The notes under the pieces are model-generated. The model was not told where the DNA came from. It was given only the letters and a program-made list of their open reading frames with translations, and searched no databases. A program made the position numbers and the translations under genes. 64,000 bases of DNA from an uncultured virus (IMG/VR IMGVR_UViG_3300009167_000001) (taxonomy: Duplodnaviria; Heunggongvirae; Uroviricota; Caudoviricetes), in IMG/VR virus record IMGVR_UViG_3300009167_000001; one strand, 5' to 3'. The first letter of the stretch is position 1; each line of letters begins with the position of its first letter. This document shows, one piece after another, positions 24,815 to 52,602 of this stretch.

Positions 24815-24887
24815 GGGCTTGTAGTATAACCTGGGATTACTCTGCCTTTGCACGGCAGTAATGAGGGTTCAAATCCCTCCAGGTCCA
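24815..24887 (+). tRNA. tRNA-Ala(UGC)
   Basis: G3:U70 pair; loop TTTGCAC. Confidence 0.9.
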
Positions 24888-25758: not shown

Positions 25759-25847
25759 TCCAGTGTGGCCGAGAGGAAAGGCATTCGGCTGTTAACCGAA
25801 AGTAGGAGGATTGAATCGCCTCGCAAGTTCGAATCTTGCCGCTGGAG
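25759..25847 (+). tRNA. tRNA-Asn(GUU) with a long variable region
   Basis: TTCGG-CTGTTAA-CCGAA followed by a 22-nt variable region. Confidence 0.8.
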
Positions 25848-27345: not shown

Positions 27346-30300
27346 ATGAATGGAAAAGAAACTGATACTAGGAAGATTTTAGCAGATGAAGAAGAAGTTC
27401 TCTCAATTCTTAGAGAATTAGCAAAAACTACTATTTTAATAGATGATGATGAATCCCTCTATGGAGAAGTCTCAGAAGACTTAGTTATACGAGCTAAAAA
27501 AGCTTTAAGAAGAGGGGGAGGGGGAGGTTTTAGCGCAGGATAACGCAGAATTTTAAATGAACTTTACTAGAAAGGATTAACATGAAACTTCCAGCCGTTC
27601 TTTATCCCAATATTTTAATTAAAAATCTCTATCTCGATGGGCTAAATTGTAATGATGTTGCCCAAAAATTACGAGCAATTAAAGAAGGTCTATATCCCTG
27701 GTTGCAACAAGATGATATGAAACCATATGTTGAGCCTATCAAGAATGATATAGAATGGATTATTCCAGAATTAGAAGATTTAAGTGCTAGATTAGGAGCA
27801 GCAGCTATAGCTCTAGAACAGGGTAAAACTGCTGAAGAATCATATGAACTTTACAACCGTTTACGTCCTAGATATGCAGAGATAGATTATGACTTGTCTG
27901 AAATTGATAATAGATGAAACTCTTCCAGAAGGAGAAATTATCTTAGATAAAGAAAAAGAAATCCTTTTAGTAAGAAGCATGGAAGATTGGTTTAAATTTA
28001 TGAAGGAATATAATGATGACTGACTTAGCAGTACAACTAATTATAGACGAACTTCGTACCCGTCTATTTGAAGCGGAACAGCGAATAGATGACCTCAAAG
28101 AAGAGAATCTTGGGCTGAAATATGGCCTGGAAGAATGGAAAAAGCAAACCATAGGATTGCAAAATCTTTTAGCAGAACGTGATGAACGACTAATGTTGTT
28201 AGAAGAAGCAGCGAAAGCAACGGTAACTATGGCAACTGCCGGTGGATATCCTAATATTGATGAATTACAAGCTGTTCTGGAGATTAAAAATGAATCCTAC
28301 AGTTAAACAAATAATAGAAAAATGGCTTAAAGCCAATGGATATACTGGCTTATTCAATCAAGATTGTGGGTGTGAACTGGATGATTTAATGCCTTGTGCT
28401 GGCTGGGATAATGGTATAGACCTTTGTAGAGCCGGTTATAAACATACTTGTGATGGTGGTTGTGAAGAATGTTATAGAAATGAATATTGTGATATGGACT
28501 TTGAATTTAGTAATATGTATATTTCAGGAGAAAAATGAAAAGCTTCATTCATTTTGATGATATGACTTGGCCTAATCCTCTTGACCCATTAGAAATTGAA
28601 TGGAAACTATGCTATGCTCCAGATAGAGAAACTCAAATAGTAGCTGCTTCTTATATAGCAGCTTATAAGCAACTTATTTCTGACACGCAAAAAAGTAGAA
28701 ACTATAAGTGCCAAAAAATAAAGGAGCTTATGAATGGATGAAAAAGCAGAAATAAAGTTATTAAGAAGAATAGAAGTAGTTGCGGAAGAACTATATAAAG
28801 CCTTAGATGACTCTGAGTATACTATTGGAAGAATGTCTACTTTAGCGCGCGCTCATGAAATGTATTCTGAAGTATCTTATCGGCCAGCTATGAAAAAACT
28901 CCGTAAATTGCTCGGAGAGTATGAAGAAAAGTTCTTCAAATGATTTTTTGTAAGCATGATTATCAATTTGTCTGTAATATCTACGGAGACTGGATAATTT
29001 TTGTAGCCAACTGGAACCGTTCTTTATGGAAATGTAGTAAATGTAGCAAATATAAGTTCAGACCAGAACTAGTAAGGAGAAATAATGGATGAGGAATTAA
29101 AAAACTTTATCATAAAAGAACGCGAAAATGCTTATGATGAATATGAAAAGCATAGTGTTCGTATGGGATATGCCACTGGGTATTGGTTTGGTTATCTAGA
29201 TGCTCTTAATGCTATTTTGAAAGAGGTTAATAAGCCTTTAGTTACTCTTTGTGATAACACCATTCATGTAGAATCTCGCATAGACCCTGATGAAATGGCT
29301 AAATTAATTGTAGATGGTTTAAAACTAAGAGAAGATTTTTTAAAAGAGCAGGAATCTACTAGAATAACCCCTGAAGAGCTACATCGGGAATATAGAGGGA
29401 TGGGATTTGATTAATGGAATGGGTAGTGCTGATAATAATCCTTTTGGTGATACTGCATAGAATTCCCAAAAAACCCAAGAAAGTAAGTGACCGTAAAGAT
29501 AGATTCTACAGATTCATGGGATATAAGTAATGGTCTTCTACTTATTTTTTGTTATTTTTGCAGTTTGGTTTTTAATTAAATATACCTTACCTAAATGGAC
29601 ACTTATAATCGTAGGAGTCCTGATAAATTCCGTGTTTTTAGCTATAAATGGAGTATAATGTTTAAAGGAGTCTGTAAAGAAAAGGGTCTTTATTGCAGAT
29701 GTATCGGCTGCGAGAATAAAGAATGCAACTTTAAATACTGTAATCTAGACAAATGCCCAGTAGGAGCTTGTATTAATCATAGTGAGTATAAGAGGAAAGA
29801 TGGCAGCGACAAAAGCAGTTAAGAAAAAGCATTGGTATCTCATTACTATAACTAGTTGTGAGCTATGTTCGGCAGGAGAAACTATTCGTACTCGTATGTA
29901 TGGAGAAAAACCAAAAGACCCAAAAGAAAGACGAGAATACTTCTATTTTGCCTGTGATAGTCACTTTCTATAAAGGAGAAAAATGAAAGCAATAGAACAA
30001 TATAAATGTGAGATTTGTGGGGGAGTCTATAGTACTCCCGCGCAAGCAGAAAACTGTGAAGCCAAGCATAGCAAAATCATAAGTACAGAAGTAATGTTCC
30101 AGCCTAACCATGTAGAACCTAGCCAAGTAAAGATAGTGACTGAAGGTAAGGATGGAAAGAGAAAACAGAAAACCTATGGTCTTTATAAGAACTGGTATTA
30201 AGGAGTAAAGAATGTATGTAGGATATTTCTTAGAAATTGAGCAACATCTGGCGGCGGCTAAATTCGGTGTCTATCTAATACAAGACGGCTGTAGTGAAGA

Positions 30301-39481: not shown

Positions 39482-41521
39482 ATGGAACTAGAGCTTAACA
39501 CTTGGTTTGTTAAGAAGACTCGATTGGGTTCTGTTTTTATAGATGGCGAGATTGAAAGACAAACTGAAAAAGCTATTCTATTTAATGGAACTGCTGTCAT
39601 AAAACCATCGAACATTTGTTGCTGTTGTGGTAGACTATTAACTGACCCTGTATCAATTGAATTAGGGATTGGTCCTATTTGTGCTGGTATAGACCAAAGA
39701 GATTCAATGACTCAGGAAGAAAAAGATGAGTATGTTAAAAAGTATAGTGCTGCTCATCATATTCAGTCTTGGATACCTAAATCAGCAATAATGAATAAAG
39801 AGGATATACCGCTGGAAGAGAAAAAGACAGAAATTGAAACTGAGCCTGATGTTCAGGTGATAGTTCATAAAGATAGCATACTCATAAAGAGCAAATATGA
39901 GTATGCTGATTTTTGTCGTTCTATTCCAGGTGGAAAATGGAACAAGGAAAGAAAGTTCTGGTATTATCCTTTTTCCAAAAGCACGGCTAAGGCAGTAATT
40001 GAAACTTTTGAGAGTGTAGAGAATAGAAGTATTTCTCAAGAAGTTATTGATGCTGCTGATGATTTGATAAAAGCTCAAGAGATTAAATCAGCAGATGAAT
40101 TGCCCGATATTCCCATAACTAAAAATGAACCGTGGCATCACCAGAAACAATGCTATTGGTTTTCAAAAGAATTGTCTGGTGCTGGTCTGTTAATGGATAT
40201 GGGAACTGGTAAGACTAAAGTTGCTATTGATTTGATAATTAACAGTGACGATAAAAAAGTTCTTATCATCTGCCCTGATAAAGTCGTTAGAGTATGGCCG
40301 AAAGAATTTGAAAAGCATTCTGATTCTGCTTTTGTAATTGTGCCATGTGAAGTTCGTGGTAAACGAATTTCTGTAGAAGAAAAAGCTGCTATAGCTAGGG
40401 CTGCTTATGAAGAAAATGAGCAAGTTGTTATAGTAGTTAACTATGAATCTGCATGGCGCAATTCTATGGGTAAATTTATCAAAGACAGTGTGTGGGATAG
40501 AATAATTCTTGATGAATCTCATAGAGCAAAGCAGTTTGATGGAAAAATTGGGAAGTTTGTTGGAGAGTTAAGTGCATGGAGAAGAAATATCTTAACTGGT
40601 ACTGTAATGCCTCATTCTCCAATGGACGTATTTTCTCAGTATAAATTTCTAGACCCTGGTGTATTTGGAACAAGTTATTATAAATTTCGTAATCGCTATG
40701 CTGTAATGGGTGGTTATATGGGAAAACAAATCATAGGATATCAGAATCAGGATGAAATGCATGACAAAATCTATTCGATTGCATTTCGTGTAACCAAAGA
40801 TATCCTTGATTTGCCAGAAGAAAACCATATAGTTCGTGACTTTGACCTCAATGATGAGGCTATATACTATTATAACCAAGCAAGAAGTGAAATGGGCATC
40901 CTCTTAGGTGATGCTAAAGTCAGAACTGATATAGTAATTGTTCAAATGCTAAGGATGCAGCAAATTACTTCTGGTTATCTGCCGATAATGGAAGAATATG
41001 AAGATGATGAAGGTAAAATTAGGCAGAGACTAGCGAGAACTGAAAGAATAGACTCTGGTAAAGCTGAACTACTTGAGGAAATTCTTGAAGACATTGATGA
41101 ACATGAGCCTGTTGTAGTCTTTTGTAGATTTCAGCATGACTTAGATGAAGTTAAAGCTGCTGCTGAAAGACTTAGCAGAACATATGGTGAGATTAGTGGC
41201 CGTAGTAAAACAGCTTTATCTGATAGAGCAGAATTGCAAGACGGAATTCAAATTGCTGGTGTTCAAATTCAAGCCGGTGGTGTAGGAATTGATTTGAGCA
41301 AAAGCCATTATGGTATCTATTATAGTGTTGGTTATAGCCTTGGTGATTACGAGCAATCATTAGCTCGTATTCATAGGCCAGGACAAACACAACCTGTAAT
41401 TTATTATCATCTGGTAGCTGCCGGTACAATTGACGAAGTAATCTATGGAAATCTCAAGAACAAAAAAGATGTGGTCAATTCCATCATGGAAACAAGGAAA
41501 CTAGAAGGGAATGAATACTGA
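39482..41521 (+). CDS. SNF2-family helicase with N-terminal Zn-finger (DUF6011-like) region
   Basis: MDMGTGKT, ILDESH, LTGT, QS.ARIHRPGQ; N-terminal C..CGR.LTDP.S...GIGPIC. Confidence 0.9.
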   Translation: MELELNTWFVKKTRLGSVFIDGEIERQTEKAILFNGTAVIKPSNICCCCGRLLTDPVSIELGIGPICAGIDQRDSMTQEEKDEYVKKYSAAHHIQSWIPKSAIMNKEDIPLEEKKTEIETEPDVQVIVHKDSILIKSKYEYADFCRSIPGGKWNKERKFWYYPFSKSTAKAVIETFESVENRSISQEVIDAADDLIKAQEIKSADELPDIPITKNEPWHHQKQCYWFSKELSGAGLLMDMGTGKTKVAIDLIINSDDKKVLIICPDKVVRVWPKEFEKHSDSAFVIVPCEVRGKRISVEEKAAIARAAYEENEQVVIVVNYESAWRNSMGKFIKDSVWDRIILDESHRAKQFDGKIGKFVGELSAWRRNILTGTVMPHSPMDVFSQYKFLDPGVFGTSYYKFRNRYAVMGGYMGKQIIGYQNQDEMHDKIYSIAFRVTKDILDLPEENHIVRDFDLNDEAIYYYNQARSEMGILLGDAKVRTDIVIVQMLRMQQITSGYLPIMEEYEDDEGKIRQRLARTERIDSGKAELLEEILEDIDEHEPVVVFCRFQHDLDEVKAAAERLSRTYGEISGRSKTALSDRAELQDGIQIAGVQIQAGGVGIDLSKSHYGIYYSVGYSLGDYEQSLARIHRPGQTQPVIYYHLVAAGTIDEVIYGNLKNKKDVVNSIMETRKLEGNEY

Positions 41522-41963
41522 TGAAACAAAAAATCGGAGATAATACACTTACCCTTCTAGAAAAAGAAGATAAGTGTAAATGTGGAAGTAGAACGTTTGA
41601 TATAGTACACGGATTAACTGTTGTTGATACTCAAGATATAGAACATGAAGTTGTTGTATGTCTTGAGTGTGGCACTATGTATGTGACGCAATAATAAGGA
41701 GTATGTAGTAATGGAAGATATAGAAGATACTTTCTGGCAGGAATATAGGTATGGAAAATCATTGAGTATTAGACATACTGGATATGGTGATACTCATGTA
41801 ATTGCAAGAACTGATTATGATACAGAATGTGATGCAGAAAGACGAGTAATAAATATGGAAACCTATTCAGTTAGTGGACCTTTTGCCTTAGCAAAGGCAA
41901 ATGAAGTCTTCAAGGAATGGCTTGCATTAGAATTGGACTTGAGTGTAAATAAATAGTAACGCC

Positions 41964-42040
41964 GTGGCCGTAGTTCAAATGGTTCAAGAACGATAGGTCG
42001 TGACCCTATCTAAATGTGGGTTCAAATCCCATCGGCCACT
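41964..42040 (+). tRNA. tRNA-His(GUG) lacking encoded G-1
   Basis: GTGGCCG/CGGCCAC; ATAGG-TCGTGAC-CCTAT; preceded by C, discriminator U. Confidence 0.82.
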
Positions 42041-42328
42041 TTAGTCTAGTAAAGGAAAGAAAATGAATTGTGCAGAATGTGGGATAGAATTGAAACCCGT
42101 TTGTGGTGAACCAACAGATTATCAATTTGAACACGCTCTTTGGATTGAATTATGGGGCGGCTATGATATGTTTATTGATAATACTGGGCCATTTCATGAG
42201 GAAGTTAAAGCAGTTTTGTGTAGAGACTGTGCTTCTAAATTCATGGAAGAAAACAAATGGGCATGGAATTTGCTGAAAGGTATAACCATTATTGATGCTG
42301 AAATAGCCTGGAAGAAACAAGGAGAGAA

Positions 42329-42826
42329 ATGAAAAGATGGGTAGTAGCTGATACTCATTTCGGCCATGCCAATATAATTGAATATTGTAGTAGACCATTT
42401 TCTTCTGTAGAAGAGATGGATGAAGTTCTGATTTATAATTGGAACTCTGTAGTAGAGAAAAAAGATTTGGTCTATCATCTAGGCGATTTTGCTTTTGGAA
42501 AAGGTTCCAAACAAAAGATTGCTGATTATAGAGCAAAACTCAATGGTCAGATTTTCCTTTTTAGAGGAAATCATGATAGAGAAACCAAAACTTGGTACAA
42601 CAGAATGGGATTTGATTTTGTAGCTGGTGGAGATTATTGGATTTATGAACCTAATGTTCTTCTATCACACAAACCATATCCTATAAGAGTACCTATGATA
42701 AACATTCATGGGCATACTCACAATCTAATGCACCTTGTTGAATCCAATCTCTATTATTGTGTTTCAGTAGAGCAAATAAACTACACTCCAATAGACCTTG
42801 ATGAACTAATAAGGAGTCTTAGATGA
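42329..42826 (+). CDS. Metallophosphoesterase, phage type
   Basis: ADTHFGH.NII, YHLGDF, RGNHD, LSH.P, IHGHTH. Confidence 0.85.
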   Translation: MKRWVVADTHFGHANIIEYCSRPFSSVEEMDEVLIYNWNSVVEKKDLVYHLGDFAFGKGSKQKIADYRAKLNGQIFLFRGNHDRETKTWYNRMGFDFVAGGDYWIYEPNVLLSHKPYPIRVPMINIHGHTHNLMHLVESNLYYCVSVEQINYTPIDLDELIRSLR

Positions 42827-43434
42827 AATGCTTTAGGAAAAAAACCCCTAAACAAATAACCAAAGACCCAAAAGAATGTGAACATGATTGGTCTGAGTGG
42901 ATTCATTATAGAGATGGGTTTGAAAGAAGTCTTTTTGGTGGATGGGCTATAGTATGGCAAATCCGTAGATGTAAGAAATGTGGTTTTGAACAGCTATATA
43001 GAACCACACTTTAAGGAGTCTCAGATGGAATTTGATTTCGGAGATATGGTGGAAGTTGTTAAAACTTCGGCTTATACAAGTGAGTATCATAGAGCAGTTG
43101 GTCATTATGGAGTAATAGTAGGAATTAGTATCTCACACCAATTTTGGCAGGTAATGTTTTGGAATGGTAACTATCCTTTACATTTCAAAATAGAAGAATT
43201 AAGGAAGGTAGAGAGGAAGTCTTAGATGATGGAATACTATGAAGCTGGTTTAGGATTCCTATTGTATATTGGACTACTTTGTATTTGGTGGCGCAGAGCA
43301 ATAGATAGGGGTGAGTTTGATTGATAGCGATAATTTTCATAGGAACTTTGATTGTTGTCTCAAGCATTTGGTGTTATTACTCGATAAAACATCAAAGTAA
43401 CCATAAAGCCTCTAAGGATTTGTGGTAATATCAC

Positions 43435-43505
43435 AGTAGATTAGTGTAATGGCAGCACAAGAGATTCCAAACCTCTTAGTAAGGGTTCAAATCCTTTATC
43501 TACTG
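43435..43505 (+). tRNA. tRNA-Trp(CCA)
   Basis: AGTAGAT/ATCTACT; loop TTCCAAA; G73. Confidence 0.85.
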
Positions 43506-43629
43506 CTTAGGGATTTACTGAGGGAAATGAGCTTAGTAGATTGGTGGAGTGGATGCGTAGGCTTGAAACTAATTGGTAAGCAAATTAGTTAATAGTATGA
43601 CAGACGCAGGTAAGTAAATCTCTTATTTT

Positions 43630-43716
43630 GCTAGGGTGGCAGAATTGGTTATTGCACTCGGCTGTAACCCGACAGTATGCATTAAGGCATTGGTGGTTCG
43701 AATCCATCCCCTAGCA
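43630..43716 (+). tRNA. tRNA-Tyr(GUA)
   Basis: Loop CTGTAAC; long V arm; A73. Confidence 0.88.
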
Positions 43717-43932
43717 CCTAAGTAAAAGAAAGGAGTTGCTTGTGACCGAGGAACAGGAACATTTGCTTGAAGAATTTGAAAAAGCAAGAAAAGAACTTTA
43801 TGCTAATACCAAGGATGGCAAACAGTTTCATAGATTTGAAACTTTATATGGATTGGCATATAGAAAATTAGTCAACGCTGGATTGAAACCTAAACTGAGG
43901 CTTAAACATAGGCCGATGTATTAAGGTTAATT

Positions 43933-44008
43933 GGGGGTGGATGGGCTTCGACTATTACTAAGCCGAAAGGAATGTAATAGGACTCGGGTTCAAATCCCGA
44001 CACCTCCA
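43933..44008 (+). ncRNA. Minimal tmRNA-like RNA: tRNA-like domain only, no tag reading frame
   Basis: GGGGGTG/CACCTCC-A acceptor with G3:U70; 5' ...TTCGAC; helix CTATTAC/GTAATAG; GAC then T arm TCGGG-TTCAAAT-CCCGA. Confidence 0.75.
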
Positions 44009-44886
44009 CTCTTCCAAAAACAAAAAAGGAGAAGAAATGGAAGACGAGCATTTCAAATCATTTGACAACACCGAAGATATGTTTGCTTATCTGGAAGAAC
44101 AGCAGAAGATAGCTAAGGAATTAGCTGACCAATATAATGCTAAGGAAATAATTCCTAAGTATAAGTATTGGGCTACTGATGAACCAACTATTGATTTGGT
44201 TATTGTTGGAAAAAGATGGGAATTACCTGCTAATCCATCTGATGATGACTTTGAAGATGAAGCAGCAACAAATGAAGCGATGGAAAGTGGTTGGATATTT
44301 GCTAAATGGTATTCATTTGCTTGCCCTGAAGGTGAGCTTGGGGATAATCATATTAGTAGATGCTATCCAATTCCAGAGTTTATTTTCTACTTCTGTCTTG
44401 ACCATATTCAAGGAGAATGTGGATGATTAAGGTATATGAATATGGTCCTGATGATTGCGAGCCACCTGAACCTGGAAAACATTGGCTTTCAATTGAAGAC
44501 GAGCATCCTGCTGGAAAAGAATATTGTGTTATTGTAGTAAGAGAGCCTTATAAAATAACACAAGAGCATTGGGATAGAGCTAATTATATTGCTAAATGCC
44601 TTGAAGAGAGGATTTAATGGATATTCGTTGCCCAATATGTGGAGAACCGTGGGATATGGATGAATTACATGAACTAATCCCTGATGAATGTGAAGACTAT
44701 CATAAAGCTGTAAGCCTTTTCCGAAATAAAGGTTGTGAAGTATTTGGTAGCAAACATGCTGAATTTGAACATGGAGACGCAGCACTATTATCTAGTGTAT
44801 TGTTTGATATACTGGGTGATGATGTTGATGGTATTGCATCTGAACTTGATGATGCTGAATATCTAGGACTTATTTAAGTCCTACTT

Positions 44887-44971
44887 GCGCCTGTAACTCA
44901 ATGGTTGCCGAAAGGCTATAGAGTAACGGACTTTTAATCCGTAAATTCGGGTTCGAATCCCGGCAGGCGTA
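44887..44971 (+). tRNA. tRNA-Lys(UUU) with a hairpin inserted in the D loop
   Basis: ACGGA-CTTTTAA-TCCGT; GCC-GAAA-GGC inside the D loop. Confidence 0.85.
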
Positions 44972-45151
44972 TTAGAGTATAGGCTGTATCCTGAAATACT
45001 GAAACACATTCTATGAGGCTAATAGATAGGTATTGAGGATAGATAAAAGGGCTAACCTGGGTTAATGAACAGCAGCTTATAAGAGTTATTTGTGTGTACA
45101 GCATTAACTCTTGAGTCTCAAATGAAAACTTTGGCTATGCTCTACGTTTTT

Positions 45152-45228
45152 CCGTATGTATCCCCTCAGTCTTCTAAACTGATGAAAGGGTAATTGGACA
45201 CATGGGAGTTCGAATCTCCCCATACGGA
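45152..45228 (+). tRNA. tRNA-Arg(UCU)-like RNA lacking a canonical D arm
   Basis: CCGTATG/CATACGG acceptor; TCAGT-CTTCTAA-ACTGA; GGGAG-TTCGAAT-CTCCC. Confidence 0.65.
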
Positions 45229-45978
45229 CTTAAACAAAATGAAAGGGGGTGATTAAATGAAAAAGCTCTGGAAAGTAGAAATTGATGGTCAAGAAAGAAC
45301 TATCGCTTTGGTATCTAAGTATGGTTATCTTTCTCTACCAATAGGTACAGTAATGTATTCTCTTAATGGAGAAAAATTTGTAGTTGGAGAAGATGAACCA
45401 GACCAAAATTACCATCTTGAGGGTTATTTACCCTATGGTATCTTGGAAGAAGAGGTTTAATGAAATGCCCGTTTAAAGTCAATGAATTTGTTATTGTAAA
45501 GGGCTATTCTAAAGATGACCCTAATTACAAGGCGAGAGTGGCTACAATTTATCCAGAGGAAGATAAAATCTGGATAGCAAATCTTAATATGCCGTTCTAT
45601 GGTACTATTTCTGAGATTGTGCCTTATGATGCAGTAGAGAAGGTGAAATAATATGAAAGATTGCTCCAATTGTCAAATTGGACCTTATGGTGGCTGTATA
45701 GATATCAATAGACCAGATATTAAATGCTCCATACATGCTTTAGTTGATAGAATAGGTGTTTGGGATTTAGCGCATGGTAAAAGGTTCTATTGTTCAGCTT
45801 ATCATAAGCATGATACTCCTTATGAAAGTGATAAAACAGTTACATTAGAGTTTATGTGTTGGTGGGGAACGCACGAAGTTACTTATAAAGAAGAAGACTT
45901 CTTCTTTATTCCATCCTCTAAAGATGGAGAAGATGATGCCATAGTCACAATAAAGGAAATAAAAGAAGGTGATTAAAC

Positions 45979-47031
45979 TTGATTGAAGAAGTGATTGAAG
46001 AAGTCACTAAGATAATCTCTCCAATTTATCTTGTTGGTGGCGCTGTAAGAGACTATATCATGGATAAGGAAGTAGATGATTTTGATTTCACTACTCCCCA
46101 TGAGCCTGATGTAGTTGAAACAATACTAAAAGAGAAAAACCCCGGAAGATGGGTTGGCACTACTGGTAAAAGCAAGGGTACGATAGGTACTAAAATCTAT
46201 CTACCTAAAAACGATTGCTTTGTCAAAATAGAAATCACCACGTTTCGTGATGAAGAATATGAAGAAAACAGTAGAAAGCCTAAAGTGACGTTTGTTAAAT
46301 CTCTAGAACAGGATTTGATTCGTAGAGATTTTACCATGAACGCCATTGTAATCCGTCTGAAAAAGGGTCATTTTCATTTCATAGACCCTGTTAATGGTAT
46401 GGATGATATTGAGAATAAAATCATTCGTGGTGTTGGCAGTTCTAAACAAAGATTTAAAGATGACCCTGTAAGAATGCTTAGAGCCGCTAGATTTGCTTCT
46501 ACTCTTGGTTTTGAAGTTGAAGAAATGACTAGGAAAAGAGTAGCAGATTGCGCTCCTAGACTTCTTATAACATCAAAAGAAAGATGGATGATAGAACTTG
46601 ACAAACTTCTAATGGGTGATTATGTAGCTGAAGGTCTTAATATTCTTGCAGAAACAAGGCTTCTAAACTATATGATTCCTGAACTAGCTCTACAGGTTGA
46701 TTATGACCAAATGACTCCATATCATGACTTTACTCTTTGGGAACATACTGTAAAAGTTGTTGAAGCAGTACCTAAAGATATTGATTTGAAATGGGCTGCT
46801 CTGCTTCACGATGTTGGTAAGCCTTTTGTTGGTAAAATAAAGCACAACAACCCTGAACAGAAAACTTATGTTGGTCATGAGCTTGTTGGTGTGGAGATTA
46901 CCACCAAAATTGGTAGATATCTGAGATGGAAAAATGATAGGATACAAACCGTTTCAGAAATGGTTGGTGGTCATCTAACTGATAGTAGTGTGTTGAAAGG
47001 CTATGATTCAGGCGCACAGAAAAGAGAATGA
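45979..47031 (+). CDS. cca: Class II tRNA nucleotidyltransferase (CCA-adding enzyme family) with HD region
   Basis: YLVGGAVRD, D.DFTT, EITTFR, DL.RRDFT.NA, RF.DDP.RMLRA.RF, AALLHDVGKP. Confidence 0.92.
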   Translation: MIEEVIEEVTKIISPIYLVGGAVRDYIMDKEVDDFDFTTPHEPDVVETILKEKNPGRWVGTTGKSKGTIGTKIYLPKNDCFVKIEITTFRDEEYEENSRKPKVTFVKSLEQDLIRRDFTMNAIVIRLKKGHFHFIDPVNGMDDIENKIIRGVGSSKQRFKDDPVRMLRAARFASTLGFEVEEMTRKRVADCAPRLLITSKERWMIELDKLLMGDYVAEGLNILAETRLLNYMIPELALQVDYDQMTPYHDFTLWEHTVKVVEAVPKDIDLKWAALLHDVGKPFVGKIKHNNPEQKTYVGHELVGVEITTKIGRYLRWKNDRIQTVSEMVGGHLTDSSVLKGYDSGAQKRE

Positions 47032-48474: not shown

Positions 48475-48963
48475 TAAAACATTATGTAGAGTTCCTTTAT
48501 CCAGGAATTTTCTTTCCAGAATCTTCAACCAAAGAAATAACTGAAGAAAAACCCTTCAATGGAAAATTTCCAAAGGGTTGCTATTGCTATTCCTTTTTCG
48601 ACGTAGAAGAAGTTGAAGGTGAGCATGGAAAACTTTGTGGAAATGCCTTCAATAAATCTGGAAGATATTATAGGGGTGGTCAAGTCTACACAACAGAAGA
48701 ACTTGAAGAGCTATTTCCCGAAGAAAGAATTCTAATTTCAAACTGTCGTAATAATGGTGGCAGAGTTGTAAAGACTAAGATAGGAAATTGGCAACCATTT
48801 ACTGACAAGGATACTCTTGTCATTGAATAAGGTCCATTAGCTAATGGAAAGGAGAAATCTGGATGACTGGAAGAAGTCCTCCGATTAAAAAAGCCCTGTA
48901 AAACTCTACTTTTGTGTATATATATGCATTGTAATGTATAATCTTTTCAAAGGAGAAAAGATA

Positions 48964-49197
48964 ATGGCTGAATTTGTTACTTTCAATCTTGCTGTACAGG
49001 GTGAGCCTGTTCGTCCGTGCGAAGTTCCTGCTGGAACAACTGTAGGTGATATGAAGATTATCAAAGGTCTTGACCTTGATTTGGAATTTCGTCTTCATAG
49101 TGAACCTATTGATGACGATTTTGAACTTGATGACTACAGCATTGGCTGTGGTGATTATCTGATTGGCACTAAAGATGCCAAAGGTGCTGCTGTTTAG
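48964..49197 (+). CDS. Ubiquitin-like (beta-grasp) protein
   Basis: 77 aa; 'EVPAGTTVGD', 'FRL...', 'GDYL', C-terminal KGAAV; AAGGAG SD; first gene of the E2/JAB/E1 cluster. Confidence 0.75.
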   Translation: MAEFVTFNLAVQGEPVRPCEVPAGTTVGDMKIIKGLDLDLEFRLHSEPIDDDFELDDYSIGCGDYLIGTKDAKGAAV

Positions 49198-49207
49198 CAT
49201 CTAAACT

Positions 49208-49249
49208 GAGGGAGAGATGAGGATTTATTTCCTTGTCTCTCCCTCTTTT
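49208..49249 (+). terminator. Intrinsic terminator between the Ubl and E2 genes
   Basis: GAGGGAGAGA/TCTCTCCCTC stem followed by TTTT. Confidence 0.7.
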
Positions 49250-49271
49250 CTTGTTTCTAAGGAGAAAAAAG

Positions 49272-51140
49272 ATGCAAATATTCTTACCAACCTCTGAAAG
49301 AGAAGATTTTCAGTACTTTCTTCAAGAGAAAACAGAAGTTACTCATTATGTAGCTTTTTACAGAACAAATAATGGAGTTTATTCTCAACTTGCCTGGGAT
49401 GATGTAACTTTAACTTATGATAAAGTAAAAGAGTTTTGGGCTGAATATGACACAAGGAATAGAGCTATCTATTCGCTGGAAGATGGATTTGTAATATCTG
49501 CTGCTGAAGATGAAAAATTTACACATTTTTTCTATGGTAATCTCACTGGCTCTGGTTTGTCAAGAAAAGAATCAGATTTTACTGTGGATGCTGCTGTTTG
49601 TGCGTCTAAACTTGAAATAGATTTTCCACTGGCAGTAGAGTTTAATCCATCTAATTATTACATGATTAGAAATGTTCCTACCATAATTCTTCTTGGTAGA
49701 GAAGTATGGAGAAATCAAGGACAATATGCTCTTGTAAATAGTCCACAAGGCGTGGCGTTTAGAAATTTGGCGAACCTTATATTTATGCCAAACTCTATGG
49801 TTACTATGGAGAGTCTCTATTTCATTCAGGAAAATCGAGCTAACTGCATAGTATTACCGTTTTGTGTTATTAGAAAAAATGAATTAGGCTTTGGTAACAC
49901 TATCTTACTAAACTCAGTAATGTTTAGTGAAGATACAATGAGTGGAATAAAATCTATCTTTGAATTGCTGAAAGAGGATTTCTTCTGGAAGAAACTTCTT
50001 ATTCCTCTTGCCTTTACTGACTTTGAAACTTTAAAAACTGAGCTTGAAAACCAGGAAATTCCACTGGCCTTGCAAGCCAAGGCATTTATTCTTCAATCAA
50101 AAAATGGTCTACTGCTTGACATAAAGACTTTGAATGAAGCAAATGCAATTATTTCTGAAGAAATAAGCGAGCTTATTACAGAAATAACAGATAAAAAACT
50201 AACAATAGACCGGGGAGAGCAGCAGATAGCTGAGAAACAAAAGGAGTTTGAGAGTGCATTAAGTTCTACTAAGCTTGAAGACGAATTTAAGAAAGTAGAA
50301 ACTCTTCCCTATGTTACAAAGTTGACTTTTACTTCTGAGGGAATGGCAGTTTATACAGAACCTATTCAAATTGATAATGGACCTTTTCTTGGTGGATATA
50401 AGATTGTTTACAATCCAGCCACAAGGAAATTGGCAATTTTCAATGAAGTTAATCCAGTAACTAAGGATGGCCTATTAGCGCATCCTCATGTACCGCAGGG
50501 TGGTCTACCTTGTTTTGGTAATTATAGTGATATCTTTTTCAGGTTTGGTACAGGAGAATTTTATGTAGCCATAGAAGAATTGTATAGATTCTTAGGTGCA
50601 TATAATCCAGAAGATACCTGGGGAAGACGTATGTTATATTGGGATGATGAATTTTACTACAAGGATATGAAAGAGCGAGAGCTTCTCCATCTATTAGGAG
50701 ATGCTCATGATAGAAGATATCATGAAATAACAGGTGAACATTTGCCTTGCATAACAATTTGTTCTGAATGTGGTGAACCTGCGCGTACTTGTGCTTGTAA
50801 TATTTGTGAAGTATGCCAAAGACCGGAAGATGAATGTGAATGTTGGATTTGCACAAGATGTGGTGGAAATATAGATAATGGGGATTGTTATTGTGATAGA
50901 TGTGACCAATGCCATGAACTAGATGAAAACTGTGAATGTGATAGGTGCGAAGATTGTGAGGGTCTTCTAGACTATAACCATTACGGTTTGAATGGAGCTT
51001 GTGAATGTCCTAGATGCCCTGATAATTATGACCATAGAATTGATGAAGATGAAGATGAAACTTGTATGGAATGTCATGAATGGGAATGTCAGTATAATCA
51101 GAATAATGAGCCTCATCAAGAAGAAAGGTTGTTTGAATAA
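49272..51140 (+). CDS. Multidomain E2 (UBC-fold)-like protein with coiled coil and Cys-rich C-terminal repeats
   Basis: HPHV...G.PCFG followed by helices and 'YNPED'; repeated CxxC...CxC tail; AAGGAG SD. Confidence 0.75.
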   Translation: MQIFLPTSEREDFQYFLQEKTEVTHYVAFYRTNNGVYSQLAWDDVTLTYDKVKEFWAEYDTRNRAIYSLEDGFVISAAEDEKFTHFFYGNLTGSGLSRKESDFTVDAAVCASKLEIDFPLAVEFNPSNYYMIRNVPTIILLGREVWRNQGQYALVNSPQGVAFRNLANLIFMPNSMVTMESLYFIQENRANCIVLPFCVIRKNELGFGNTILLNSVMFSEDTMSGIKSIFELLKEDFFWKKLLIPLAFTDFETLKTELENQEIPLALQAKAFILQSKNGLLLDIKTLNEANAIISEEISELITEITDKKLTIDRGEQQIAEKQKEFESALSSTKLEDEFKKVETLPYVTKLTFTSEGMAVYTEPIQIDNGPFLGGYKIVYNPATRKLAIFNEVNPVTKDGLLAHPHVPQGGLPCFGNYSDIFFRFGTGEFYVAIEELYRFLGAYNPEDTWGRRMLYWDDEFYYKDMKERELLHLLGDAHDRRYHEITGEHLPCITICSECGEPARTCACNICEVCQRPEDECECWICTRCGGNIDNGDCYCDRCDQCHELDENCECDRCEDCEGLLDYNHYGLNGACECPRCPDNYDHRIDEDEDETCMECHEWECQYNQNNEPHQEERLFE

Positions 51141-51943
51141 TGGAAACTCCTAAAACAACTTTGTGGATTCCTCCAGAACTTTATGCAGAATTAATGTATT
51201 ATGCTCATAATGTAAACACAGAAATCGGTGGTTATGGTTTAATTGAGATTGATAAGGAACACAATGACCTGTTAGTTGGAGAAGTGTTTCTCACTGAACA
51301 AGAAGTTCATGGTTCAAAATGTGACCTTTCTGCTGCTGGTCTAGCAATTTATATGGAAGATTTAATTGCTAGGGGAGAACAAGATAAAATTGAACAGATT
51401 ACTTTGTGGTGGCACTCTCATGTAAATATGTCACCATCACATTCTGGTCAAGATGAAGATACAATGCTTGAATGGCCTAGCAATTATGTGGTATCCCTGG
51501 TAATAAATCGCAAGGGAGATATGAAAGCTCGTCTAATGTCTAAAACTCCAGTAATAGTTGCAGGAGATATAGATGTAGCAGTTGACTGGCTTGATAATGA
51601 AAGTGCTGAAGTATTAAATCAAACTATAGAAGATAAGGTAAAGGAATATACTCCCCCAAAGCCCGAGATAGTTGTTCAGGGTCAATTGCAACCAACTCCA
51701 AGAGGAAATGGTGGATACAGCCCGTATGGATGGCCTCAAAATTATTGGGGCGGTTATCAAAGCTGTATGGATAAAAAGCCAGAGAAAAAGGCTCATGAAC
51801 TAACTGATTCTGAATGGAAAAATGAGCAAGAACGGCTTGATGCCGAAATAAATGCCTGGGAAAACAATGATATTGAAGGAATCATCAAGTATGGTGGTCT
51901 AGATGAAGCTGAAGCTAAGGCAATAAGAGAAATGTGGGATTAG
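51140..51943 (+). CDS. JAB/MPN+ metalloprotease (deubiquitinase-like)
   Basis: N-terminal EIGG and WWHSHVNMSPSHSGQD (HxH-x7-S-xx-D). Confidence 0.85.
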   Translation: METPKTTLWIPPELYAELMYYAHNVNTEIGGYGLIEIDKEHNDLLVGEVFLTEQEVHGSKCDLSAAGLAIYMEDLIARGEQDKIEQITLWWHSHVNMSPSHSGQDEDTMLEWPSNYVVSLVINRKGDMKARLMSKTPVIVAGDIDVAVDWLDNESAEVLNQTIEDKVKEYTPPKPEIVVQGQLQPTPRGNGGYSPYGWPQNYWGGYQSCMDKKPEKKAHELTDSEWKNEQERLDAEINAWENNDIEGIIKYGGLDEAEAKAIREMWD

Positions 51944-52602
51944 TTATGACTGAAGCTTACACTAGAAGTATAGGAATTTTCAACCCCGATAATTCCCGAC
52001 CAGTAGCTATTCTTGGTTGTGGTTCTGTTGGTTCTTTCGTAGCCTTGACATTAGCCAAAATGGGAGTACAATCTCTACATCTTTGGGATGGTGACACGGT
52101 TGGAGAAGAAAACATTGGTTGCCAGAATTTTGGTTGGGAACACTTGGGTATGCCAAAGGTTGAAGCAGTAAAAGAAGTCATAATGGCTAATTCTCCAGTT
52201 AAGAGTGAGAATATCCATTGTCACAATGAGTTTATCGGACCAGACACTAGGTTGCCAAAGATTATCACTGTTGTAGCAGTTGATAGCATGACAATACGAC
52301 ATTTGATTTGGGATAAGCTCAAGAACAAAGTACCATTGATAGTCGATGGGCGCGTAGGTGGGCAGATAGTAAGAGTATTTAATGTACTTCCGACAGAAGA
52401 ATTCTCAATATACTATGAGAAATATCTTGTGCCAGAAGAAAAGGCATTAGAGCTTCCATGTACCGAAAGAAATGTCGCCTATGTTGCCAATATAGTACAA
52501 GCTATAATAGGGAGAGCCATACGAAATTTTATTGTAAATGGAAGAGTGGAGAAAGAAATCGGTATTGATGTTGCTACATTTATTAACTATGTAAAGGAAT
52601 AA
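51934..52602 (+). CDS. ThiF/E1-like Ubl-activating enzyme
   Basis: GCGSVGS, LAKMGV, DGDTV...NI..Q, G.PKV, AVDS, DGRVG; candidate catalytic Cys in ELPCTER. Confidence 0.9.
   Translation: MGLVMTEAYTRSIGIFNPDNSRPVAILGCGSVGSFVALTLAKMGVQSLHLWDGDTVGEENIGCQNFGWEHLGMPKVEAVKEVIMANSPVKSENIHCHNEFIGPDTRLPKIITVVAVDSMTIRHLIWDKLKNKVPLIVDGRVGGQIVRVFNVLPTEEFSIYYEKYLVPEEKALELPCTERNVAYVANIVQAIIGRAIRNFIVNGRVEKEIGIDVATFINYVKE

What the first reader, a model, noticed from the sequence alone, without database searches (positions are those of the whole stretch)
43933..44008. Mini-tmRNA: alanyl tRNA-like domain with no mRNA-like domain
Seen: the 5' end GGGGGTG...TTCGAC and 3' end GAC-TCGGGTTCAAATCCCGA-CACCTCC-A resemble the two conserved ends of tmRNA (G3:U70 and A73 alanine identity, no D stem, no anticodon arm). 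The usual several-hundred-nt tag/pseudoknot region is replaced by a 7-bp helix and a 15-nt loop containing CC-GAAA-GG. Established: SmpB binds this domain, and tag-less tmRNAs are known from some protist mitochondria. Inference: this could be an SmpB sponge that blocks host trans-translation, or a rescue RNA that adds Ala without a degradation tag. It needs CCA addition, and a cca gene lies 2 kb downstream.
Basis: partly seen in the sequence, partly recalled or inferred. Interest (0 to 1): 0.85.

Follow-up and report, generated by a model that had tools for sequence, protein, structure and literature searches.

The report
Phage tag-less mini-tmRNA gene
This freshwater phage carries a real 76-base gene for only the alanine-accepting, tRNA-like end of the bacterial ribosome-rescue RNA (tmRNA); the kind is already published for phage DS6A, is common but mostly unannotated, and probably diverts the host's rescue-and-tag system.

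Summary
Window 43933-44008(+) scores 59 bits against Rfam tmRNA (cut-off 47), with 308 model positions replaced by 13 nt; ARAGORN misses it. It belongs to a conserved family: 224 distinct sequences were collected, 195 of them 77-81 nt. The P2a stem covaries (445 of 490 positions paired against 218±10 in shuffles). Scans for variants lacking U70 or A73 found none. A model built without it recovers the published 'TLD-only' tmRNA of mycobacteriophage DS6A (63.7 bits, same inner hairpin), so this is a new member of a known kind. None of 31 viral carriers encodes SmpB. Best reading: an alanylated RNA that takes host SmpB, competes with host tmRNA and lowers SsrA tagging. Rival: tag-free rescue or alanine tailing, favoured by strict alanine identity and by a copy inside the translation-stress-induced trn operon of Nostoc PCC 7120. 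Expression, charging and binding were not tested. This scan found the family before on other DNA.

The parts
43933..44008 (+). TLD-only (CDS-less) tmRNA gene, 76 nt before CCA addition
   Evidence: Rfam RF00023 59 bits; family model R1 74.9 bits, but this sequence was in the training set
43933..43939 (+). Acceptor stem 5' strand; G3 at 43935
   Evidence: Sequence, fold
43940..43951 (+). D-loop-like single strand without a D stem, with the GG and UUCGA(C) motif of the tmRNA TLD
   Evidence: Alignment to the Rfam consensus
43952..43980 (+). P2a helix (43952-43958 with 43974-43980), purine-rich internal loop and CC-GAAA-GG cap, in place of the mRNA-like domain
   Evidence: Fold; covariation across the family; inner motif in 153 of 202 long members against 21±4 in shuffles
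43981..44000 (+). GAC connector and T arm (5-bp stem, 7-nt loop)
   Evidence: T-stem pairs 100% paired with compensatory changes
44001..44008 (+). Acceptor stem 3' strand; U70 at 44005, discriminator A73 at 44008; CCA not encoded
   Evidence: 0 IMG/VR matches to patterns with non-U70 or non-A73
45979..47031 (+). Phage CCA-adding-type tRNA nucleotidyltransferase gene (general helper, not specific to this RNA)
   Evidence: Pfam PolyA_pol, RNAbd and HD; best NCBIfam hit TIGR02692 CCA enzyme at 267.6 bits, below its 438.8 cut-off; 0 of 23 tRNA-type genes in the window encode CCA
43435..45228 (+). Loose same-strand cluster of tRNA genes (Trp, Tyr, Lys, D-armless Arg-UCU-like) and small ORFs around the mini-tmRNA; probably co-transcribed (inferred)
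   Evidence: no + strand terminator-like site in 41500-46200

Best explanation
A phage-encoded, stand-alone tmRNA tRNA-like domain of the DS6A family that acts as a charged competitor of host tmRNA. Step 1 (inferred): it is cut from the tRNA-cluster transcript like a pre-tRNA and gets CCA from the phage or host enzyme. Step 2 (inferred from invariant identity elements): host AlaRS charges it through G3:U70 and A73. Step 3 (inferred from conserved TLD motifs and published TLD structures): it binds host SmpB, since carriers encode none, and EF-Tu. Step 4 (inferred; published only for DS6A or a similar molecule in E. coli): it draws SmpB away from host tmRNA and can enter ribosomes stalled with an empty A site, adding alanine but offering no resume codon, tag or stop. 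The net effect is less SsrA tagging and degradation of stalled products during infection. Shown here: sequence, structure by covariation, family, absence of a tag region, absence of SmpB in carriers. Not shown: expression, charging, binding, effect.
For: Family membership with DS6A (63.7 bits held-out). Published inhibition of endogenous tmRNA by that form (passages only: PMC11915505, PMC4131195; the primary paper, Mao et al. 2009, is not held). SmpB absent from 31 of 31 viral records, 14 of them at least 90% complete. All 5 of 5 cellular genomes tested that carry a mini also keep a full-length tmRNA, so the mini co-exists with it rather than replacing it. Only 1 of 31 viral carriers has a further, full-length tmRNA-like gene. 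Purifying selection on structure. In cyanobacterial genomes 6 of 9 inspected copies have lost the UUCGAC motif, as expected if a cell tolerates the RNA better with weaker SmpB binding (inference).
Against: PMC4131195 says inhibition occurred whether or not the molecule was chargeable, so a pure sponge does not need alanine identity, yet no non-U70 or non-A73 variant was found. Copies sit in cyanobacterial tRNA arrays, including the Nostoc PCC 7120 trn operon that is induced by translation stress and aids survival, an odd place for an inhibitor of rescue. One viral record (G008) carries both a mini and a full-length tmRNA-like gene. The inhibition result comes from expression in E. coli, not from infection.
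Confidence: 0.55

Rival explanations
1. Tag-free rescue or alanine tailing. The Ala-charged RNA with SmpB enters non-stop ribosomes, takes the chain and displaces the broken mRNA. Repeated rounds add an untemplated alanine tail, or the peptidyl-RNA drops off or is hydrolysed by a back-up factor. The RNA helps translation under stress rather than blocking it.
For: Strict G3:U70 and A73. Length held at 77-81 nt in 195 of 224, with D-loop and arm lengths compensating (Spearman -0.52 over 98 cluster representatives, kinship not modelled). SmpB plus a TLD fragment makes polyalanine in vitro without template (review passage on Shimizu and Ueda 2006, PMC3929946). A copy lies 4 nt behind tRNA-Glu in the stress-induced Nostoc trn operon. 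CDS-less mitochondrial tmRNAs persist with nuclear SmpB (PMC11915505).
Against: There is no stop codon or release signal, so release needs a second pathway. The only reported in vivo effect of this form is inhibition. The Nostoc survival benefit was measured for the whole operon; this RNA was not named in the text or held supplement and could be one of the three genes the paper found undetectable (figure not visible). Many cyanobacterial copies have degenerate SmpB-side motifs.
Confidence: 0.25
2. Decoy for host defence: the RNA absorbs nucleases or SmpB-like sensor domains that target tmRNA or tRNA, protecting translation during infection.
For: CoCoNuT type IV restriction systems carry SmpB-like domains with RNases and are predicted to touch tmRNA (PMC11090510 passages). 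The window also holds many tRNAs, a CCA enzyme and an RNA ligase. PMC8421152 discusses operon tRNAs as toxin sponges.
Against: The tmRNA targeting is itself only predicted. A decoy explains strict alanine identity poorly. I did not test co-occurrence with such systems in hosts.
Confidence: 0.1
3. A cis-acting processing signal: a tRNA-like element that lets RNase P and 3' nucleases cut a polycistronic phage mRNA and so tune gene dosage.
For: Among 89 distinct loci of at least 2.5 kb, the RNA lies just upstream of a portal gene in 7 (6 of these with terminase-cluster genes upstream) and between head protease and major capsid genes in 5 (representatives annotated, the rest by BLAST cluster). The same arrangement occurs in phage phiPsal1.
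Against: Processing needs neither G3:U70 nor the TLD-specific motifs. Most members lie in other contexts, such as tRNA arrays and replication genes. A late operon may simply give high expression.
Confidence: 0.05
4. A remnant: an attachment-site fragment, a decayed tmRNA pseudogene, an assembly deletion, or half of a two-piece tmRNA.
For: tmRNA genes are common integration sites (PMC11915505). One cellular match (L160) does look to me like a collapsed host tmRNA, and 1 of 103 neighbouring proteins scanned was an integrase.
Against: Both ends are present in cis and closed by a hairpin. Covariation 0.675 against 0.147 in shuffles, 0 of 500 reaching it. 116 clusters at 80% identity keep the same architecture. 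The permuted-tmRNA model scores 21.8, below 47. No second piece in the window. Contigs from other runs show the same sequence.
Confidence: 0.03

Closest known systems
'TLD only' tmRNA of Mycobacterium phage DS6A (tmRNA Website tmID 11587; Mao et al. 2009, seen only through PMC4131195 and PMC11915505); located here at JN698994.1 28478-28557
   Same: Standard order, both TLD ends in cis, G3:U70 and A73, about 80 nt, P2a stem plus A-rich internal loop plus CC-loop-GG cap, no tag; phage-encoded; 63.7 bits with a model built without it.
   Different: Different sequence (BLAST with the window RNA did not list DS6A); GAAA cap against CACG; in a tRNA cluster of a large, 37% GC phage rather than beside a DNA polymerase gene in a 60-kb phage.
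Standard bacterial tmRNA (SsrA, Rfam RF00023)
   Same: TLD: acceptor stem with alanine identity, D-loop without stem, UUCGAC and GGAC motifs, T arm, P2a.
   Different: No pseudoknots, resume codon, tag frame or stop codon: 308 model positions are replaced by 13 nt.
CDS-less organellar tmRNAs (jakobid and oomycete mitochondrial RF02544; ~65-bp Mallomonadaceae plastid genes)
   Same: No tag reading frame; alanine TLD relying on an SmpB encoded elsewhere (PMC11915505 passage).
   Different: The mitochondrial genes are usually permuted, and RF02544 gave no listed hit here. They replace full tmRNA, whereas these minis co-exist with it.
Engineered TLD fragments (Gutmann 2003, Bessho 2007, Shimizu and Ueda 2006; seen through review passages in PMC3929946)
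   Same: Same architecture, TLD ends joined by a capped stem; they bind SmpB and support template-free polyalanine synthesis in vitro.
   Different: Laboratory constructs; the natural family conserves an extra internal loop and 2-3-bp cap.

Membership tests
TLD-only (CDS-less, standard-order) tmRNA, DS6A type | tmRNA-type TLD with 5' and 3' ends in cis and no anticodon arm | tested here: met
   RF00023 59 bits over model positions 1-374; fold
TLD-only (CDS-less, standard-order) tmRNA, DS6A type | Alanine identity G3:U70 and A73 | tested here: met
   43935/44005 and 44008; no variants found in the family
TLD-only (CDS-less, standard-order) tmRNA, DS6A type | No mRNA-like domain or tag frame between the P2 strands | tested here: met
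   29 nt between C43952 and the GAC connector, all in stem or loop
TLD-only (CDS-less, standard-order) tmRNA, DS6A type | Shared sequence and structure with the DS6A RNA | tested here: met
   Model R1, built from 88 sequences including the window and excluding DS6A, scores DS6A 63.7 bits, E about 3e-15 (rough calibration), and a full tmRNA end 28.7 bits
TLD-only (CDS-less, standard-order) tmRNA, DS6A type | Binds SmpB, is alanylated, inhibits host tagging | not testable with these tools
   Needs biochemistry; no RNA run was listed
Standard tmRNA (RF00023, trans-translation with tag) | Tag reading frame with resume and stop codons, pseudoknots | tested here: not met
   308 model positions absent; ARAGORN calls no tmRNA
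Permuted two-piece tmRNA (RF04321) | Acceptor piece upstream of an intervening sequence and a coding piece that starts with the TLD 5' strand | tested here: not met
   RF04321 21.8 bits against cut-off 47; the 5' strand precedes the 3' strand; no other piece within the 64-kb window; the rest of the genome is not held
Mitochondrial tmRNA (RF02544) | Match to the mt-tmRNA model, organellar location | tested here: not met
   No RF02544 hit listed (lower-scoring overlapping clan hits are hidden); the window is phage DNA
tRNA-Ala | D stem and anticodon arm with a 7-nt loop | tested here: not met
   Not called by ARAGORN; the phage has a separate tRNA-Ala at 24815-24887

The most novel reading that the evidence does not exclude
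TLD-only tmRNAs are not just SmpB sponges but a widespread natural third route of ribosome rescue. A 76-81-nt alanylated RNA plus host SmpB adds untemplated alanine (one residue or a tail) to stalled chains without any tag template. Phages use it to reroute stalled ribosomes, and cyanobacteria have adopted it into their translation-stress tRNA operons.
Probability: 0.25. Interest if true: 0.8.

Novelty: new member of a known kind. Interest (0 to 1): 0.45.

Why it matters
The 2025 tmRNA database lists only 9 standard-order CDS-less genes among 97,179 and names one phage example (PMC11915505). Here 224 distinct sequences were collected, about 240 IMG/VR contigs match a strict pattern, and unannotated copies occur in six cultured phages and in a well-studied Nostoc stress operon. 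The open question of what a tmRNA without a tag does can therefore be tested in tractable, harmless systems. If it inhibits tagging, it is an RNA-based phage handle on an often essential host pathway; if it rescues, it is a new rescue route. The single window copy adds little beyond one more member.

Tried and rejected
No whole genome is held for the window; the nearest viral record G001 (66% complete) has no tmRNA match over cut-off and no SmpB, but it is a fragment, so this is uninformative. Expression: no RNA holder listed, no evidence either way. BLASTN of the window RNA against cultured phages found only 29-30-nt T-arm matches in 9 records; BLASTN of a cyanobacterial copy against plasmids found nothing, although the model found one in NC_003273. 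Rfam at gathering score misses the DS6A, Nostoc and L175 copies, and my strict pattern misses them too, so all counts are lower bounds. A search for sister phages through the downstream 129-aa ORF found no relative, so whether this copy arose by recent deletion from a full-length gene is open. The promoter scan gave 7 sites against 17.9 expected by chance, so no promoter is claimed. No conserved partner protein: the largest neighbour cluster covers 13 of 89 loci and is a portal protein. Pairing in trans with a separate coding RNA through the cap loop was considered; caps vary (30 gCNNGc, 16 GNRA, 52 other among 98 representatives), which fits a structural cap. G3:U70 in 110 of 110 was forced by the search pattern and is not counted as evidence; searches are the test. 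Mao et al. 2009 could not be read.

Full report
Verdict. The feature is real, and it is a new member of a published but little-studied kind: the 'TLD-only' tmRNA first described in mycobacteriophage DS6A. It most likely competes with host tmRNA for SmpB and for stalled ribosomes; tag-free rescue is the main rival. Nothing functional was tested here.

1. The observation. The sequence at 43933-44008(+) is as described: 7-bp acceptor stem with G3:U70 and A73, a D-loop without stem, a 7-bp helix closing a 15-nt loop with CC-GAAA-GG, a GAC connector and a T arm. Rfam RF00023 gives 59 bits (cut-off 47; E 1.6e-20) across model positions 1-374, with 308 positions replaced by 13 nt. The centroid fold matches, z -2.64. 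ARAGORN does not call it. A contig from run X1 (possibly the source sample) spans it with no differences, one from run X6 (another study) covers 43300-43982 with no differences, and no joint was listed.

2. Surroundings. The window is part of a large phage. It holds 21 ARAGORN tRNAs and genes for lysin, thymidylate synthase, helicase, primase, RNA ligase and a ThiF/JAB pair; none of the 58 ORFs scanned (the plus-strand ORFs of about 100 aa or more, plus a few shorter neighbours) is SmpB. The RNA lies 8 nt after a 62-aa ORF and 28 nt before a 129-aa ORF, among tRNA-Trp, -Tyr and -Lys on the same strand. A CCA-type nucleotidyltransferase gene starts 1971 nt downstream (below the NCBIfam cut-off). 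None of 23 tRNA-type genes examined, this RNA included, encodes CCA. Matching DNA runs are mostly freshwater and wetland. No second tmRNA piece is in the window; the rest of the genome is not held.

3. A family. A first pattern found 22 IMG/VR loci, 19 of them minis and 3 permuted tmRNAs. Two complete sub-scans gave 33 and 48 contigs, against 15 and 24 of 117 in the sample, so about 240 contigs match the strict pattern. A metagenome scan also hit its limit at 116. After dropping 12 loci by name (11 with full-length or permuted tmRNAs, and L160, which I judged a collapsed host gene) and 9 rows without a 7-bp acceptor, 224 distinct sequences remained: 195 are 77-81 nt, 9 are 63-66 nt, 121 encode CCA, and they form 116 clusters at 80% identity. 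The window's nearest relative is only about 76% identical.

4. Structure is under selection. Counting from the fixed anchors, with no fitted alignment, P2a positions 1-5 are paired in 445 of 490 cells over 98 cluster representatives, against 218±10 in 2000 shuffles, maximum 256. On the 88-sequence MAFFT alignment the covariation score is 0.675 against 0.147, with 0 of 500 shuffles reaching it and slid controls at or below 0.141. The inner A-rich/CC/GG motif is in 153 of 202 long members against 21±4 in shuffles; the inner pairs are less regular (83% paired). G3:U70 was built into the collecting pattern, so I tested it separately: patterns demanding a non-U at 70 or a non-A at 73 found 0 contigs. 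These patterns still fix the neighbouring bases, so more distant variants could be missed.

5. Known precedent. PMC4131195 (passages) lists DS6A as 'TLD only' and says a similar molecule, chargeable or not, strongly inhibits tmRNA, perhaps by titrating SmpB. PMC11915505 (part 1 of 5 and passages) says the DS6A form inhibits endogenous tmRNA in E. coli and counts 9 standard-order CDS-less genes among 97,179. The primary paper was not available. Model R1, built without DS6A, finds an 80-nt RNA at DS6A 28478-28557 with 63.7 bits and the same inner hairpin. It also finds unannotated copies in all 6 cultured phages tested: Streptomyces phages pSt2308, GiJojo, Shaeky and BRock, Stenotrophomonas phage Jojan60 and Pontimonas phage phiPsal1, 67-78 bits. 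Searches for 'mini-tmRNA', 'TLD-only', 'CDS-less', 'tagless', 'tag-less' and 'minimal tmRNA', and for papers citing Mao et al. together with phage, inhibit and SmpB, listed no paper describing the wider family (listings only, and subscription journals are mostly missing). Earlier notes of this scan report the same family on other DNA, including the cyanobacterial operons; I had reached both points before reading them.

6. Dependence on the host. SmpB is absent from 31 of 31 viral records carrying a mini, 14 of them at least 90% complete. One of the 31 also has a 392-nt tmRNA-like gene. Five of 5 cellular genomes tested carry a full-length tmRNA besides the mini. There is no conserved protein partner. 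Contexts are tRNA arrays (31 of 116 loci of at least 3 kb have a tRNA, 23 within 500 nt), head-morphogenesis operons and replication genes. One of 103 neighbours scanned (of 143 listed) is an integrase.

7. Cellular copies. The strict pattern gives 26 matches in 185,579 genomes, 6 of them parts of ordinary tmRNAs. The model finds matches in 15 of 90 genomes of one cyanobacterial family; 9 of 10 inspected loci are tRNA arrays. Nostoc PCC 7120 plasmid delta has a copy at NC_003273.1 51739-51819(-), 63.6 bits, 4 nt behind tRNA-Glu in the trn operon. That operon is one transcript, induced 100-1000-fold by ribosome-targeting antibiotics, and favours survival (PMC8421152 sections 19, 21, 29; PMC10272220 passages). 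PMC8421152 does not mention tmRNA, ssrA or SmpB in its text or in its held supplement, which was cut when stored. It reports three undetected 'pseudogenes' in a figure I cannot see, and this RNA could be one of them. All 9 inspected cyanobacterial copies keep G3:U70 and A73, but 6 have lost UUCGAC and 8 have GGAU for GGAC.

8. Mechanism. Inferred chain: processing as a pre-tRNA, CCA addition, alanylation, binding of host SmpB and EF-Tu, entry into ribosomes with an empty A site, alanine transfer, and then no template. Because carriers lack SmpB, any abundant copy must compete with host tmRNA, and inhibition is the only reported in vivo effect: 0.55. But a sponge need not be charged, SmpB with a TLD fragment makes polyalanine without template in vitro (PMC3929946 passage), and the stress-operon copies suggest a helper: 0.25. 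The two overlap, since a charged competitor both titrates SmpB and adds alanine; they differ in whether the ribosome ends up freed. A decoy for tmRNA-targeting defence (PMC11090510 passages) gets 0.10, a processing signal 0.05 and a remnant 0.03.

9. Score. New member of a known kind, interest 0.45. The kind and the sponge idea are in print, and the scan has met the family before. The breadth of the family, its strict alanine identity and the tractable carriers make the function testable.

Noticed in passing
window 44887-44971 (+): tRNA-Lys(UUU) with an enlarged D-loop holding a GCC-GAAA-GGC hairpin; the 9-mer GCCGAAAGG occurs only here and in the mini-tmRNA loop on the + strand. Rfam 62.9 bits; ARAGORN misses it.
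   Followed up: partly
window 45152-45228 (+): tRNA-like gene with an Arg(UCU) anticodon arm, no D arm and a long variable region that can pair with the 5' linker; Rfam tRNA 36.1 bits in the E-value scan only.
   Followed up: partly
window 48934-52602 (+): Four-gene block: 87-aa ORF (possibly ubiquitin-like, my guess), 635-aa Cys-rich protein, weak JAB-domain hit, ThiF/E1-like enzyme; resembles a prokaryotic ubiquitin-like conjugation module.
   Followed up: no
window 25759-25847 (+): tRNA-Asn(GUU) of 89 nt with a long variable arm, unusual for Asn.
   Followed up: no
L263 41740-41820 (-), NC_003273.1 51739-51819: Mini-tmRNA inside the TrcR-repressed, stress-induced trn operon of Nostoc PCC 7120, not named in the paper on that operon.
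   Followed up: partly
L003, L011, L023, L063, L084, L097; L027, L039, L056, L067, L095; L259: Mini-tmRNA inserted between terminase and portal genes, or between head protease and major capsid genes, in small tailed phages.
   Followed up: partly
L026, L054, L065, L092, L129, L132, L149: A shorter 63-64-nt class with a plain hairpin in place of the two-part arm; L061 (same RNA as L054) and L065 lie next to a DnaB helicase gene.
   Followed up: no
L173 5589-5980 (G008:C1:77588-77979): A 123-kb viral record has both a mini and a 392-nt tmRNA-like gene whose ARAGORN tag call does not look like a usual degradation tag.
   Followed up: partly
L174 (G002:C25) and L175 (G002:C32): One Leptolyngbya genome carries two minis: one beside tRNA-Trp and a Tpt1/KptA RNA 2'-phosphotransferase gene, one in a tRNA array.
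   Followed up: partly
L257 1504-1746; L260 1389-1529: GenBank hypothetical CDS calls in phages GiJojo and Jojan60 overlap the mini-tmRNA and may be false or mis-started gene calls.
   Followed up: no
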